Shown piece after piece: positions 1 to 60,770 of a DNA stretch of 64,000 nt; positions within the stretch are counted from its first letter, which is position 1; every line of letters starts with the position of its first letter. This DNA is from Leucoraja erinacea. Taxonomy: Eukaryota. The position numbers and the translations under genes are program-made. The DNA is taken from contig NC_073410.1 of assembly GCF_028641065.1 (NCBI RefSeq), positions 2,976,001 to 3,040,000 of the forward strand. Direction: 5' to 3'. Below the pieces are notes generated by a model. That model did not search any database. It worked only from the letters and a program-made list of their open reading frames with translations, and had not been told where the DNA came from.

Positions 1-457
1 CTGGAAGCACTCAGGTCAGTCAGGCAGCATCTGCGGAAGGGCAGTGGCTTGCTTGCTTACCTGCTGTGAGTCTCCAACACATTCTATTTTAATTTCTATT
101 GATGTGCGTGGATAGAAAAAGTCAAGATGGATACAGGCCAAACACAAGCAAATAGTACAAGCTCAAATAGACATCTTGGTTGTCATGGACAAGTTGAGAC
201 AAAGGGCCTTTGCTGAAAAACTCTCTTAAAGTAGATCTCTTAGCTCTAAGGATAAGATGATAACTCAGTCATTCTCATTGTAACTCTTTGCTTGCTGGCC
301 CAGAAGAAGATCTATTATTCTCCACCACAAGTTGCACCCCGGTCACTCCCTCTTCTCCCCAATCCCATTGAACAGGAGGTATGGAAGTGTGAAAACGCAC
401 ACCTCCAGATTCAGGGACAGTTTCTTCCCAGCCACCACCAGGCGACTGAAACATCTT

Positions 458-588
458 GTTTAAGAAGGAACTGCAGAAGCTGGAAAATCGAAGGTTGCAA
501 AAGTGGTGGAGAATCTCAGCGGGTGCAGCAGCATCTATAGAGCGAAGGAAATGGGCAACGTTTCGGGCCGAAAACCCTTCTTCAGACT
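458..588 (-). mobile_element. Short Penelope-like terminal (pLTR-derived) element with intact minimal hammerhead core (557-585, minus strand)
   Basis: Reverse strand reads CTGAAGA-A-GGGTTTTCGGCCC-GAAA-CG-TT; flanked by direct repeat CATCTT (452-457, 589-594). Confidence 0.7.
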
Positions 589-868
589 CATCTTACCACA
601 CCCAGAGAACAGTGCTGAACTACCTTCTACCTCATCGGTGACCCTTGGACTATCTTTGATCGGACTTTACTGGCTTTACCTAGCACAAAACATTATTCGC
701 ACACAACAAAAGCTTTTCACTATACATCTCGTGCCAATAAACTAACCTGAACTATGGAGGTAATGAGTTCCAAACCCCAAGCACTTTCTGCGTGACATTA
801 TATTTCCTCACCACAGTTCTAATCCCGCTATTAATTGCTTCAGGTGTATGCTCCTTGGTATTTGAGCT

Positions 869-935
869 AGACAAAAGTGCTGGAGAAACTCAGCGGGTGC
901 AGCAGCATCTATGGAGCGAAGGAAATAGGCAACGT
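869..935 (-). mobile_element. Truncated Penelope-like terminal element
   Basis: Family sequence GCTGGAGAAACTCAGCGGGTGCAGCAGCATCTATGGAGCG; TSD TTTGAGCT at 861-868 and 936-943. Confidence 0.65.
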
Positions 936-55780: not shown

Positions 55781-57436
55781 ATATAAGCTAAATACATATT
55801 TTTGATGCATCTAGTGAACATCTTTGGTTTTCACATTAACATATTCTCAAATATTTTAATATTTTTACAGGTAGATATCATTACGGAACAGTAGACATAA
55901 CACAAAATTTAAAAATAATTTGTCAAACTTTCCAATTTTTTTTATCCTGTTCTTATCCACAGAAAATTGAGAGCATGGAAAACTAACCTCAAAATATTAT
56001 TTTTTAAATGACTAACCGAATCTGACTTTAATGTGCATTATATCATCATTGCCTGCAGTCTACTTTTTCTTTGGCTGAATCTCACTTCTGTAATGTTTAT
56101 TCTGAGTGATGCCCTGTGACAAGACCAAGCATCTCTATTAATCTGCACTGGCTACAATAAACATATTTTCTTTGATTTATTTTAAGCTAAGCTGTCTGCC
56201 TGGAGGTTTGTACAATCAAAAGCAATGTTTGCAATAGTGGGAAGTCTTTTTTTTAATCTAACACTACAATCAGAAGTGACTTTTCTTTTGTATTTTTCAA
56301 GTGGAGGAGAAGATGCTTCTTCCAACTCCATTTGGAGATAAAATTTATGGTTTACAAATATACACACAAGCTATATTGAAATAGAATTGGTTGGTATCAA
56401 ACAAAAATCTTTCTAAATTGTCTCTATGAAAAATTCATCCGTAACCTTTTCATTTGAATGCCAATCCAGGGCACCCTTTTTACAGACCATGCTACTTTTG
56501 AGCCTAATGACTGACTTGTCTGATGAATGATAGTTCTCTCCCAGACTTGCTGAAGTGGCTTCTGAAGATCATGATTTTTTTTTAGTACTGTTTTCTTTTC
56601 AACGTTTCAAGCAAGCTGCCCATGAAAGAATTGACCTGTTTGAATTAATCATTGAAAAGACTAGAATACTCAGCAGGTCAGACTGCAACAATGATGAGAA
56701 AGAAAGCAGAGATGCTATTTCAGGTTTCTAACTTCCAATCTAGGGTAATGTAGTCCAGTGCTAAATGTTTTTCCATTTTTGCCTCATCTTGTATTTACAA
56801 TCTTTTTCACGGGAAATTATAGAAATATGTTTTGAAACAGATTTCCACCAATTAAAATTGTGGCAGCACTCTTATATTGAATGTGGTGAAGCAAGATTTT
56901 GTCCCATGAGATAGATCCTTGATGTTCAAAACTTTTTCTTTGTAACTCTGAAGAATCTTTGCTGAAAATATCATTCTTTCTGGCTGAACAAATAAAAGAA
57001 AATCTGCTTGGCTGACTGTTGGTGTCTGGTTAAATGCCTCTTAAATGTTGCTATTGTATCTGCTGCTACCATCTCTCCAGAGAGCATGTTCCAAGCACCT
57101 ACCACTCTGTTGAAACCAAAAAATAAATGCATCTACCATAAGCATTCTCCCTCTGTGGCCTTAATTCCATGTCCATTTTAGTTGTGCATCCAAGCTATTT
57201 CTGCCATGCTCAACAACATCTTCCCAGCGCCATCATTTATCTGTTGCAAAGGTATTTAAAGCATGGCTACCAAGTTTGTCTGAATGCCAAATAGTATGGT
57301 AAGCAGAACTAAACACAATATTCCAAATGTGGCCTAACCAACACTTTATACAGCTGCAACATGACTTCTCAATGTTTATATCATGACTGCTGAAGGACAG
57401 CATGGGGCGTGCTACCCATCTACTTGTGTTGCCATT

Positions 57437-57531
57437 AGTCTGAAGAAGGGTTTCAGCCCTAAACGTTGCCTATTTCCTTCGCTCCATAGATGCTGTTGCA
57501 CCCGCTGAGTTTCTCCAGCACTTTTGTCTAC
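57437..57531 (+). mobile_element. Penelope-like terminal element inserted in an old CR1 fragment
   Basis: 17-bp TSD CTACTTGTGTTGCCATT at 57420-57436 and 57532-57548; core with GAAA>TAAA change. Confidence 0.8.
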
Positions 57532-59420
57532 CTACTTGTGTTGCCATTTTCAGGGAACTGTGAACTTGCACCCCAAGTAAAATAATCATTTTTGAAATGT
57601 TGGAGGCAAGGGGGTTTTATTGTCATATGTTCCCGATGGAACAATTAAATTCTTACTTGCAGCAGCACGACAAAACAATATAATAAATAATAAAATAAAG
57701 TTCAGTGCGTGTGTGTATATATATAAACATTTTTAAATATCATTTTTAAAAAGGCAACTGTCTGCAGTGACATGTTGCAAGCAAAGTATATCATTATTCC
57801 AACACTTCTTTAAAAAGAGACTGACACTATTGCCAATATGAAACTCAAACGCAAGCATGGAATCCGATATATGCCAATAAATTGAATTGAGATGGACACT
57901 TACATAGCGCACACTTCGTCACTCTGACAACAACAGTCCATTAACATTGCAGCTGGTAAGGTTAATTAGCAATCTGAAAGTGCCAAGAAAAATAAATTCA
58001 CAAGATATCCCAGAGATGCAGCTTTGTAAGCGAATCTCACCCATTTTAATTTGAACTTTGATTGCTTTTTGTAATTTGTGTTGCCACATCCATGAAAGGT
58101 GTTCTGTATGTGGCTGAAAAATTAATGGTATTTTGCAGAGGGCAAGATACATCTTTGATATACTTTATTGAAGCACATATGGGAAAACTTTATTAATGAA
58201 TTTCTATTTTAAGTTGCAGCCATTTATTTGTAAGATGGTTTTATGGAATAATTCCTCAAGAACTGGAGCACAAACTCAATTGGAGCACTAACTTTTAAGT
58301 GTTTAAATAAAAATATAGTAGGAATGCTTAACGTTTGCCTGCATCCGTGAAGAGAAGCAGAGTTAATATTAGCTGATGGGAACGTTTAGTGATAGACAGA
58401 TGGTGGGGAAATGCATTGCTTCCAAAACATGTACCACCCTTTTATCACCCACTTTCACCTGGCACCACCTCCACCATTCATATATTTGCCTGATACAGAT
58501 ATTCCCCGTGGCTCTCTCACCCTCCTTCGTCACCACTTTTTTTATTACCAGTTCAGATTTTAATAATAAATCTGAAACATTTTCTGGTCCTCCCCCCCCC
58601 CCCCCCCCCCCCCCCCCCCCCCCCCCTGAGGTACTGTGAAAAGCTTTTGCAAATATGAAAGTACCATTACATAATCATCATTAATATCGTCTGGGGGGGG
58701 ATGAGCAATTTTGTGTGTTTTATCTCTCTCATTTTACTAAGATGTGCAGTGAAAGTGACTGCACAGTCTGCAACAGAGCTCATAATGTTGATGAAGCTGA
58801 GCACTCTATCAACTCAAGTATACATTTTATGTTTTTATGAGATTGAAGTAGACTGACAACTAATTAGGCAAGGTGCAGAGATGGAGCATGAAATCAGCAG
58901 CTGTTGCTCTTTCTCACAAGAAGAACATTTAAGTATTTTTACACGTTGTGAATGACCCAATAGAGTATTTAATTTGCCACTTTCTGTGACTGTTGGTTGG
59001 TTTGTTTCAGTAAATGCTCGATGGACACTAGAACTAATGAATTTATTAATCTTATCACTGAAAGTGGGATTTGTCCACTTGTAATGAGGAGATATTGCAA
59101 AGTGCATGTTTTGGAATCTGAACAGTGCATATGTGTAAAAGATGAATTTAATCTTTATTATCTTCCCATTTACTGCTTAACTTCAAGCAGTTTCCAGTTG
59201 ATTTTCCTCATTTATAGTTGTGATTATTTGAACAATCCTTATGGTTTGTATTTCTTTTAGGAATGTTGAGTATAGCTCAGCAATAGACATGACAATTATA
59301 TTATGGATAACAACTGATTTTCCCTAGGGAATATAAGATGATATTTCCCTGCACAGAATGTTTAAACATTTTTCAAGTGCGCACACACATGCTTGCAAAA
59401 GTCTTAAAAACTGTAACAAT

Positions 59421-60770
59421 CCACCAGGTGGCGACAGCAATGGCTGTCTGGCCAGCAGTCTGTCATGTCCCTTCTCTGTTTTTATTATTTTAAGTGTGTT
59501 TTAAATGTGTGTTTCAATGTTTCTTGGTTAGTTTGTGTGTGGGGAGGGGGGGGGGGAGGGGGGGATAGGGGTAAACGTTTTTCAGTCTGTAGAAGGGTTT
59601 CGGCCCAAAACATTGCCTATTTCTTTCGCTCCGTGGATGCTGTAGCACCAGCTGAGTTTCTCCAGCACTTTTGTCTACCTTCGATTTTCCAGCATCTGCA
59701 GTTCCTTCTTAAACTTTTTTCAGTCACTTACCTCGACGGAGATGCGACTTTCTCAGTCGCATCTCCTAACAACTGGAGTGGTGCGGCCTTTCCTGGAGAC
59801 CGGCCTGGATCATCGCGCGGCAAGCGCGGCACGGACTTTAACATCGCGGAGCTGCGATCCTTTGCCAAGGATCGCCAGAAGAAGTGCTCTGACCGCAGGG
59901 CCTGTGGACTTTTCACACCGTGAAGGTCTCCGGTAAAAACATAGAAACATAGAAATTAGGTGCAGGAGTAGAGGCCATTCGGCTCTTCGAGCCTGCACCG
60001 CCATTCAATATGATCATGGCTGATCATCCAACTCAGTATCCCGTACCTGCCTTCTCTCCATACCCTCTGATCCCCTTGGCCACAAGGGCCACATCTAACT
60101 CCCTCTTAAATATAGCCAATGAACTGTGGCCTCAACTACCCTCTGTGGCAGAGAGTTCCAGAGATTCACCACTCTCTGTGTGAAAAAAGTTCTCCTCATC
60201 TCGGTTCTAAAGGATTTCCCCCTTATCCTTAAGCTGTGACCCCTTGTCCTGGACTTCCCCAACATCGGGAACAATCTTCCTGCATCTAGCCTGTCCAACC
60301 CCTTAAGAATTTTGTAAGTTTCTATAAGATCCCCTCTCAATCTCCTAAATTCTAGAGAGTATAAACCAAGTCTATCCAGTCTTTCTTCATAAGACAGTCC
60401 TGACATCCCAGGAATCAGTCTGGTGAACCTTCTCTGCACTCCCTCAATGGTAAGAAGCGGCTGACTTGGGAACTCCATGTCGCGGTGGGTTCCAATCCGT
60501 CCGGACGTCGGAGTTTCGATCATCCCGACGAGAGGGCCTGAACATCGGACCCTCTATAGCGGTGAACTGCAGAGGGTTCAAAGGCCCCGCCTGGTGAACA
60601 AAGGAGGAAGATGACTGAACTTTATTGACTGAGGAATGTTGATTCCGCCGTGGTGGATGCTTATGTTAAATTTTATTTTATGTGTTCTTTTCACTTAGTA
60701 TGGCTGAATGGTAACTCTAATTTCACAGTACCTTCATTGGTTAAGTGACAATAAATTTGAACTTGAACAA
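59421..60770 (+). mobile_element. GC-rich retroelement with nested Penelope-like terminus (59588-59715) and nested CR1 LINE (59937-60448, minus)
   Basis: TTTTTCAGTC duplicated around the PLE insert; GGTAA duplicated around CR1; CR1 ORF IEGVQRRFTRLIPGMSGLSYEERLDRLGLYSLE. Confidence 0.75.

What the first reader, a model, noticed from the sequence alone, without database searches (positions are those of the whole stretch)
452..59725. Dense family of short, TSD-flanked Penelope-derived elements carrying minimal hammerhead ribozymes
Seen: a motif CTGAAGA-A-GGG(TCTCGA|TTTCGG)CCC-GAAA-CG-T(C/T) recurs on both strands. It is intact at 557-585(-), 5924-5951(+), 17485-17512(+) and 34870-34897(-), and variant at 1007, 5492, 14494, 22668, 37088, 44053 and 57440, among others. 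At 5672-6017 and 37015-38140 it sits directly downstream of a Penelope GIY-YIG coding remnant. Stand-alone copies of ~65-230 bp have variable-length TSDs (6, 8, 11, 13, 16 and 17 bp). Established: this fits the hammerhead core CUGANGA-stem II-GAAA-stem III-UH. Penelope-like elements are known to carry minimal hammerheads whose tiny palindromic stem III (here ACGU) forms in dimers. Inference: these are a very high-copy non-autonomous ribozyme-bearing retro-family mobilised by PLE RT/endonuclease. The class is known, but this elasmobranch family may be uncharacterised.
Basis: partly seen in the sequence, partly recalled or inferred. Interest (0 to 1): 0.75.

Follow-up and report, generated by a model that had tools for sequence, protein, structure and literature searches.

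The report
Skate Penelope ends with minimal hammerhead
These are dozens of 100-135-base end pieces of a Penelope-type jumping gene, probably in a skate, most carrying a decaying copy of a known minimal hammerhead ribozyme motif; they are likely by-products of the parent element's copying rather than a separate ribozyme-driven family, and their very regular ends may show how Penelope elements insert.

Summary
The motif is real: 20 matches against 0 by chance, and 43 fragments of two subfamilies in about 31 insertions (6% of the window). It is the terminal pLTR piece of a Neptune-type Penelope element, probably of a skate (endonuclease remnant 91% identical to a Leucoraja protein). All six TSD lengths claimed are confirmed. 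The hammerhead core is genuine by homology, but helix I is only 2 bp here, and the copies decay: 6 of 20 keep all core letters. No copy starts at the cut site, and three RNA runs show no pile-up of ends. Instead, 20 of 43 copies start at or just inside an edge 3 nt before the core, and 37 of 43 end at one of two sites about 35 nt apart (the known PLE 'tail'). In 9 of 9 head-to-head insertions only one arm has the tail. Best reading: short cDNAs primed from two internal start sites on uncleaved PLE RNA, with an RNA 5' end (possibly the transcription start) at the fixed edge. Two local re-copies with host flank show some second-round mobility. Known class; I did not find this family in print.

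The parts
457..588 (-). solo copy, subfamily A, positions 1-132 (with tail), all core letters, 6-bp TSD
701..937 (-). solo A copy (865-937, positions 25-97) plus host flank 701-864; likely source of the segment carried inside 4222-4947
1004..1176 (+). partial tandem of two B pieces (3-59 and 25-135), 10-bp TSD that includes 5 nt of the element's 5' end
1707..1870 (-). B copy that continues about 60-70 nt into the pyrimidine-rich upstream pLTR; no tail
4222..4947 (.). one insertion with 13-bp TSD: tailed plus arm 4827-4947, inverted arms 4691-4826, a 91% copy of host flank 701-864 (split by a later ~280-nt insert), and a site-1 piece 4222-4248
5489..5623 (+). solo copy of mixed A/B type with tail; stem II broken
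5670..5810 (+). C-terminal GIY-YIG endonuclease remnant ending in a stop
   Evidence: (91% to a Leucoraja erinacea protein)
5811..5920 (+). pyrimidine-rich upstream pLTR of subfamily A, ending in TC before the fixed edge
5921..5953 (+). hammerhead: helix I 5' strand 5922-5923, core 5924-5930, extra A 5931, stem II 5932-5943, GAAA-CGU 5944-5950, H17 = U5951, predicted cut 5951/5952, helix I 3' strand 5952-5953
   Evidence: sequence directly; homology
5921..6016 (+). terminal piece of the coding copy 5672-6016, ends at site 1 (no tail); 12-bp TSD with one mismatch
   Evidence: laid with reads
6052..6147 (-). solo B copy without tail, 12-bp TSD with one mismatch, starts about 2 nt upstream of the edge
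10184..10407 (.). head-to-head B/B unit: tailed arm 6-134, short arm 2-97, 11-bp TSD with one mismatch
11570..11689 (-). solo B copy with tail, no TSD found
14139..14269 (-). solo A copy with tail, 13-bp TSD
14492..14625 (+). solo B copy with tail, possible 8-bp TSD; likely source of 15806-15878
15054..15239 (.). head-to-head A/A unit joined at the stem II palindrome (arms 14-94 and 14-133)
15806..15958 (-). B piece (20-95) + 23 nt matching the 5' flank of the 14492 copy (20/23) + B piece (3-54)
18989..19110 (+). solo A copy, positions 13-133, 8-bp TSD
22563..22796 (.). head-to-head A/A unit, short arm 2-97 and tailed arm 3-132, 16-bp TSD
23232..23408 (.). head-to-head B/B unit: tailed arm 35-125, short arm 5-93
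34773..35125 (.). head-to-head A/A unit with 11-bp TSD; short arm split by a later ~180-nt insert
37025..38115 (-). 5'-truncated coding copy of subfamily B: RT thumb and Cys linker (37876-38115), later insert, GIY-YIG (37300-37692, frameshifted), upstream pLTR, hammerhead core at 37089-37115, end near site 1
43975..44181 (.). head-to-head B/B unit, short arm 16-92 and tailed arm 1-134, 11-bp TSD
49532..49673 (.). head-to-head B unit, short arm 12-39 and tailed arm 16-135, 12-bp TSD with one mismatch
53940..54052 (+). decayed copy with about 35 nt of A-type upstream pLTR and a deletion in the core
57437..57533 (+). solo A copy, positions 1-97, blunt 5' junction, 17-bp TSD
59584..59714 (+). solo A copy with tail, 16-bp TSD (one mismatch) that includes 5 nt of the element's 5' end

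Best explanation
The repeats are the terminal 97-135 bases of a Neptune-type Penelope element carrying a minimal hammerhead motif, and they were likely inserted by that element's own reverse transcriptase-endonuclease as short cDNAs of uncleaved RNA, primed at two internal start sites and probably running off a fixed RNA 5' end three bases before the core. Shown: identity with the end of the coding copies, variable TSDs, two 3' ends, one sharp 5' edge, decay of the core after insertion. Inferred from the anole PLE experiments (PMC11167929): the enzyme nicks both strands and starts reverse transcription inside the RNA at two sites about 35 nt apart. One primed strand would give a solo copy with or without tail. 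When both strands prime, one at each site and probably on the same RNA, the two cDNA ends would be joined, giving the head-to-head unit with one tailed arm inside one TSD. The fixed edge is most simply the transcription start of the pLTR promoter (untested, about 45%). On that view the short copies are complete copies of the RNA leader made whenever the enzyme starts at the 5' pLTR. The ribozyme rides along: it probably acts, if at all, only in the parent element, as a dimer or with protein help.
For: Ends: 24 of 43 alignments reach positions 1-6; 3 of these run on into the upstream pLTR and 1 has a 6-nt match, so 20 stop there; 0 of 43 start at 29-34, around the cut site. 18 of 43 end at 92-105 and 19 at 125-135. 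In public runs, loose ends with mixed flanks are among the best-supported rows at 5921/5922 and 6016; depth over the short piece is about 5-10 times that over the endonuclease (DNA run X2) and about 6 times in RNA run X24; opposite-strand joints occur in DNA and RNA. Head-to-head units: 9 of 9 have exactly one tailed arm (8 of 19 single copies have a tail; chance about 0.002), and both arms are always of one subfamily. 5 of 7 testable arm pairs share a non-CpG variant, against 79 of 317 other pairs. In 2 units (10184-10407, 23232-23408) the tail-less arm reaches further 5' than the tailed arm, which fold-back of one cDNA cannot give. Related families show the same rule: of 13 head-to-head loci, 1 is a duplicate, 3 are uninformative and 9 of 9 are long/short. 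The motif YC-AGTCT, kept in 4 of 4 copies with upstream pLTR, fits the Pol II initiator consensus (recalled, not from a call); Drosophila Penelope has an initiator-type internal promoter (PMC2377424, passages). Uncleaved RNA is the dominant template in vitro (PMC11167929).
Against: No pile-up of RNA starts at 5921 in three poly(A)-type runs (table 6: none); 79-98% of those reads run on into unlike sequence, so they mostly come from passive copies and the test is weak. In related metagenome families the 5' ends are spread over about 5-45 nt before the core rather than fixed. The upstream pyrimidine tract plus CAG also fits a 3' splice site. Several 5' junctions share 1-5 nt with the TSD, which blurs the edge. 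Two loci are re-copies of solo copies with flank, so not all copies come straight from coding elements. Shared arm variants could come from later gene conversion, and the pairs are not independent. 19 of 31 units have no TSD above control. No full-length element is in the window.
Confidence: 0.62

Rival explanations
1. A separate non-autonomous, SINE-like family: one or a few short master copies, transcribed from host promoters, are copied in trans by the PLE enzyme, and the fixed ends are inherited from the masters or set by trimming of the RNA up to the protein-bound part.
For: Both ends are fixed and the short piece outnumbers the coding part about 5-10-fold in depth. 4222-4947 carries a 91% copy of the flank of the 937 copy inside a 13-bp TSD, and 15853 carries 20/23 nt of the flank of the 14492 copy, so solo copies can act as templates. 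pLTRs suffice in cis in rotifers (PMC3846280, parts 1-3).
Against: No unique head, no tRNA in the window and no paired A/B boxes. Subfamilies A and B each have a coding partner in the window and share the same edges. Seven solo copies have a TSD or likely TSD abutting the edge, with no carried flank.
Confidence: 0.2
2. Same parent and same two priming sites, but the 5' edge is not a transcription start: it is a reverse-transcriptase stall or a processing point (3' splice site, protein-bound pyrimidine tract, or exonuclease stop) at the 5' edge of helix I.
For: All four upstream pLTR pieces are pyrimidine-rich and end in CAG. [quoted passage not shown] Related families show short but staggered 5' ends.
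Against: No shared first exon in front of the solo copies. No skip joint with 3 or more RNA reads among the 15 joints shown; 99 more were not shown. The branch-point-like words lie too close to the AG (recalled rule). At least two blunt copies keep the AG.
Confidence: 0.25
3. Retrozyme-like unit: hammerhead self-cleavage cuts out monomers or circles that are reverse transcribed and inserted.
For: Conserved core with a palindromic helix III replacement; retrozymes derive from PLE pLTRs (bioRxiv 10.64898/2026.07.22.740005, parts 1-3).
Against: 0 of 43 copies start at the cut site. No head-to-tail array beyond one 50-nt duplication. No RNA ends at 5951/5952. Helix I is 2 bp; the monomer's lowest-energy fold is another hairpin (-6.7 and -7.2 against -4.5 and -3.9 kcal/mol for the hammerhead fold).
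Confidence: 0.05
4. The palindromic units are MITEs moved by a DNA transposase.
For: Inverted arms of 46-103 nt.
Against: TSDs vary from 11 to 16 bp, the arms are unequal, the centres differ from copy to copy, and each arm is the PLE end.
Confidence: 0.02

Closest known systems
Minimal hammerheads (min-HHR) of metazoan Penelope-like elements (Cervera and de la Pena 2014, PMC4209133)
   Same: Type I core in the pLTR, extra base between A9 and G10.1, G10.1-C11.1 pair, palindromic 15.2-16.2, thousands of dispersed single motifs 'probably related to truncated PLEs', and close pairs on opposite strands.
   Different: Helix I is 2 bp (4-5 bp in the Schistosoma families; 2 bp reported for D. virilis), stem II is only 4 bp, and the density is about one insertion per 2 kb here. 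No shark or skate is named in the parts read or in the two searchable supplements.
Neptune clade of EN+ PLEs (Craig et al. 2021, PMC8557442, passages)
   Same: C-terminal GIY-YIG, Cys linker before it, 5' truncation, inverted truncated partner, 30-40 bp tail often at one end only.
   Different: Here most insertions are only the last 97-135 nt, with one sharp 5' edge; clade placement rests on motifs and similarity, with no RT tree.
PAc (Poseidon) of Anolis carolinensis (Frangieh et al. 2024, PMC11167929)
   Same: Two RT start sites bounding the tail, both strands nicked and extended, uncleaved RNA as template, no RNA-seq ends at the cut site.
   Different: Other clade. In the parts read and a term search the paper does not link the two sites to inverted pairs or describe a fixed 5' edge.
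Animal non-LTR retrozymes (PMC7229834, passages; bioRxiv 10.64898/2026.07.22.740005)
   Same: PLE-derived, non-coding, hammerhead-bearing, longer TSDs; reported in one chondrichthyan genome.
   Different: Retrozymes are head-to-tail tandem arrays with efficiently cutting or dimer-active ribozymes and circular RNAs; these are dispersed singles and head-to-head pairs.

Membership tests
PLE minimal type I hammerhead | Core CUGANGA ... GAAA ... UH with extra base after A9 and G10.1-C11.1 | tested here: met
   Both consensus sequences; 6 of 20 core-spanning copies keep all 13 letters
PLE minimal type I hammerhead | Palindromic 15.1-16.1 in place of helix III | tested here: met
   ACGU in both subfamilies
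PLE minimal type I hammerhead | Helix I with covariation | tested here: inconclusive
   Window: 2 bp only (U-A or U.G, then G-C), a one-sided change between subfamilies. Homologous cores: pairs 1-3 form in 36, 37 and 34 of 43 distinct combinations, 0 of 2000 shuffles reach this; pair 4 in 22 of 43, 81 of 2000. Relatedness between families is not controlled.
PLE minimal type I hammerhead | Located in the pLTR downstream of a PLE ORF | tested here: met
   Two coding copies in the window. In related loci a same-strand GIY-YIG match often lies 100-200 nt before the core.
PLE minimal type I hammerhead | Self-cleavage as dimer or with protein | not testable with these tools
   Only a weak indirect test: no read ends at the cut site in 3 RNA runs
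Neptune-clade PLE | [quoted passage not shown] | tested here: met
   Linker split by an insert at about 37693-37875, read across both sides; aligns with shark proteins P0003, P0004, P0006. Pfam found nothing on the broken frames.
Neptune-clade PLE | RT phylogeny | not tested
   An RT remnant exists at 50733-51199 but no named reference set was at hand
PLE insertion signature | Variable TSD, inverted truncated partner, optional 30-40 bp tail at one end | tested here: met
Non-LTR retrozyme | Head-to-tail tandem units each with a hammerhead | tested here: not met
   only partial tandems at 1004-1176, 4731-4831 and 15806-15958
Non-LTR retrozyme | Abundant monomeric or circular RNA | not testable with these tools
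   only poly(A)-type runs were available
SINE | Pol III head (tRNA/5S/7SL, A and B boxes) | tested here: not met
Non-autonomous family (own master copies) | Own lineage distinct from coding copies | tested here: inconclusive
   No private sequence seen, but two local re-copies; no genome held

The most novel reading that the evidence does not exclude
The skate genome holds a very large natural record of Penelope integration. A dimeric enzyme primes both nicked strands from two fixed sites on one uncleaved RNA, runs off a transcription start three bases before the hammerhead, and joins the two cDNA ends. This would explain in one model the inverted pLTR, the one-sided tail and the swarm of solo ribozyme copies, and it leaves solo copies able to be re-copied nearby with host flank.
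Probability: 0.3. Interest if true: 0.55.

Novelty: new member of a known kind. Interest (0 to 1): 0.33.

Why it matters
As a ribozyme finding it is ordinary: dispersed minimal hammerheads from truncated Penelope elements have been described since 2014, and these copies are decaying. Its value is mechanistic. Penelope integration has been reconstituted for one element only, and the origin of the inverted partner copy is unexplained. A genome with roughly one short insertion per 2 kb (about a million if this window is typical of a 2-Gb genome; size recalled, extrapolated from one window) makes the two-primer model and the fixed-5'-end question directly countable. It also warns that counts of 'genomic hammerheads' in such genomes mostly count passengers.

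Tried and rejected
Rfam has no hammerhead match at E up to 1; its hits are hairpin-shaped miRNA models on the palindromes, all below gathering score. No genome is held for this window, so there is no genome-wide count or tree. 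Pfam found nothing on seven broken reading frames. Folding six copies gave z-scores from -0.94 to +0.35, so no unusual stability. An 8-bp helix that pairs the tail with the body is predicted in both consensus sequences, but it is invariant and gives no covariation. The minus-strand excess in single-cell run X22 goes with T-run loose ends and is probably internal oligo-dT priming. A shared upstream stretch at 14492 and 15853, first read as a third pLTR type, is better explained as a re-copy. Earlier scan notes held nothing on this family. The dimer-cleavage paper of Lunse et al. is not held; I know it only through the review PMC6765202 (passages). Repbase and Dfam could not be searched, so the family may already be catalogued there. 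Supplements of the 2026 preprint (its chondrichthyan families) and one supplement file of PMC4209133 were not seen.

Full report
Observation. The motif is at the coordinates given and far above chance: 20 matches with up to 3 mismatches, 0 in 100 shuffles. Searching with window copies gave 43 fragments that resolve into about 31 insertion units and cover 6.3% of the non-N sequence; one more decayed copy lies at 53974. They fall into two subfamilies, A (19 fragments, mean 95% identity to consensus) and B (24, 90%), each about 133-135 nt long and alike along the whole length. I number positions from the A three bases before the CUGA core; the predicted cut is between 31 and 32.

Parent element. 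The piece follows a GIY-YIG remnant on the same strand at 5670-5810 (A type) and 37300-37692 (B type). The first is 91% identical to a Leucoraja erinacea protein (2 hits among 6 candidates, both from that species), so the host is probably a skate. Longer relatives from whale shark, zebra shark and bamboo shark align with the endonuclease, with a thumb and Cys-linker piece at 37876-38115, and with a separate RT remnant at 50733-51199. The Cys linker in front of a C-terminal GIY-YIG is the Neptune/Nematis mark (PMC8557442, passages); I built no RT tree.

Is it a hammerhead? The layout matches the minimal PLE hammerhead (PMC4209133, parts 1-2 of 4): core, extra base after A9, G-C first pair of stem II, palindromic ACGU. 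A metagenome scan for the same core gave 129 matches in 124 loci, in 36 families. Many have a GIY-YIG match 100-200 nt upstream, 84 of 129 have four or more helix I pairs, and helix I pairs 1-3 covary beyond shuffles (relatedness not controlled). The residue before the cut is C, U or A in 127 of 128. So the motif is a real, conserved PLE hammerhead. In the window, though, helix I is 2 bp in both subfamilies, and the 36-nt monomer prefers another hairpin. Only 6 of 20 core-spanning copies keep all 13 core letters, and only 4 of these also keep stem II and both helix I pairs. Core CpG positions differ in 20% (A) and 29% (B) of cases, against 11% and 13% at other CpGs. The dispersed copies are therefore not being kept as ribozymes. 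Non-CpG core positions are better conserved than the rest (7 of 286 against 229 of 3340), which fits selection in the source elements.

Ends. If cleavage made the template, copies would start at 32; none of 43 starts at 29-34. Twenty start at 1-6 with no upstream element sequence, 1 has a few more bases, 3 run on into the pLTR, 13 start at 7-28 and 6 later. At the 3' side, 18 end at 92-105 and 19 at 125-135: the optional 30-40 nt tail of PLEs (PMC3846280, parts 1-3 of 5), which in the anole element is the stretch between two internal RT start sites (PMC11167929, parts 1-2 of 4). TSDs scoring 9 or more occur in 12 of 31 units against 5 of 930 control pairs, and several include 1-5 nt that also belong to the element's end. 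Laying one DNA run and three RNA runs on 5640-6045 at 85% likeness showed the same picture beyond the window: a 5-10-fold depth step between endonuclease and terminal piece (the tool warns that this is no copy number, and other subfamilies' upstream parts do not map), mixed-flank loose ends at 5921/5922 and 6016, tail sequence behind 6016, and opposite-strand joints. Only the best-supported rows were shown (1249 loose-end and 99 joint rows were not). No place had many molecules beginning or ending, neither at the cut site nor at the edge; the RNA reads come mostly from passive copies in host transcripts, so this is a weak negative for both.

Head-to-head units. Nine units are inverted pairs, six of them inside a clear TSD of 11-16 bp. 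In all nine exactly one arm has the tail; with 8 of 19 single copies tailed, chance is about 0.002. The arms are always of one subfamily and share rare variants more often than other pairs (5 of 7 against 79 of 317). Junctions sit at local palindromes or short homologies. In two units the tail-less arm reaches further 5' than the tailed arm (2 against 6, and 5 against 35), which a single cDNA folding back on itself cannot produce unless bases were lost later. The related families behave alike: 9 of 9 informative independent loci are long/short, out of 13 found. The literature notes that the tail is often at one end only (PMC8557442), but I found no paper that ties this to two primers (searches; term search).

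Mechanism. Shown: identity with the PLE end, TSDs, two 3' ends, one 5' edge, the one-tail rule, neutral decay. Inferred: target-primed reverse transcription from two internal sites on uncleaved RNA, both strands primed in the paired units. Least certain is the cause of the edge. The four copies with upstream pLTR all read YC-AGTCT after otherwise divergent pyrimidine tracts. This fits a Pol II initiator (consensus recalled) and would explain why helix I never exceeds the bases available after the start. It also fits a 3' splice site, and related families have staggered ends 5-45 nt before the core. I put the transcription start at about 45%.

Second-round mobility. 4222-4947 is one insertion with a 13-bp TSD that carries a 91% copy of the flank of the copy at 865-937, 3.8 kb away, and 15806-15878 carries 20 of 23 bases of the flank of the copy at 14492, 1.3 kb away, joined at a 10-nt homology. 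Direction of copying and RNA versus DNA template are inferred, not shown.

Known or new. The class is known, including dispersed single motifs and opposite-strand pairs (PMC4209133). It is not a retrozyme array and has no SINE head. I did not find this elasmobranch family in searches; the little skate genome paper does not use the word Penelope in its main text; a 2026 preprint reports retrozymes in one chondrichthyan (parts 1-3 of 5 read, supplements not seen). Repbase and Dfam were not searchable. Other papers were seen as passages only: PMC2377424, PMC6765202, PMC7229834, PMC6155905, PMC8969392. Verdict: new member of a known kind, interest 0.33, with a testable mechanistic extension.

Noticed in passing
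window 4222-4947 and 701-937: Host flank of a solo copy carried inside a TSD-flanked insertion 3.8 kb away (local transduction).
   Followed up: partly
window 14460-14625 and 15806-15958: Second local re-copy: 23 nt of 5' flank plus the copy, joined to another copy at a 10-nt homology with site 1.
   Followed up: partly
window 50733-51199 (-): Isolated PLE reverse-transcriptase remnant with no hammerhead piece beside it.
   Followed up: partly
window 1798, 5921, 37118, 53974: All four copies that extend into the upstream pLTR lack the tail, while 8 of the other 15 single copies have it (small numbers).
   Followed up: no
consensus positions 54-62 and 108-116: An 8-bp helix, the same in both subfamilies, is predicted to pair the tail with the body and to enclose site 1; a candidate RT-binding structure without covariation support.
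   Followed up: partly
window 11661-11687 (-): The first pair of stem II is changed on both sides (G-C to U-A) in one copy.
   Followed up: no
consensus positions 12-15, 20 and 32: Positions 20 and 32 both switch G/A between subfamilies, keeping stem II, helix I and also a competing hairpin (12-15 with 32-35).
   Followed up: partly
protein P0004, C-terminus: A zebra shark gene model reads through a peptide like the frame-1 translation of this motif, a hint that the same pLTR hammerhead is in sharks.
   Followed up: no
proteins P0001, P0002, P0007: Skate gene models (an RT fusion, a myocardin isoform, a neuromedin-U receptor) contain pieces of this endonuclease, probably annotation of repeats as exons.
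   Followed up: no
window 7318-7516, 12880-13078, 13331-13528, 14369-14448, 32602-32799, 33441-34117, 59946-60147; and 3545-3725, 19912-20102, 20619-20803, 29393-29562, 54944-55130: Two other dispersed repeat families of about 180-200 nt, several in inverted pairs; probably SINEs.
   Followed up: no
window 32055-34423 and 31187-31558: A 77-bp tandem array with a 488-bp higher-order period, and a 29-bp array of 13 copies.
   Followed up: no
window 48394-48679: Nested inverted repeats spanning about 285 bp, MITE-like.
   Followed up: no
L037, L043, L097, L040, L041, L096, L118 and others: Related Neptune-type families of other organisms also form short TSD-flanked solo ends and long/short head-to-head pairs.
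   Followed up: partly
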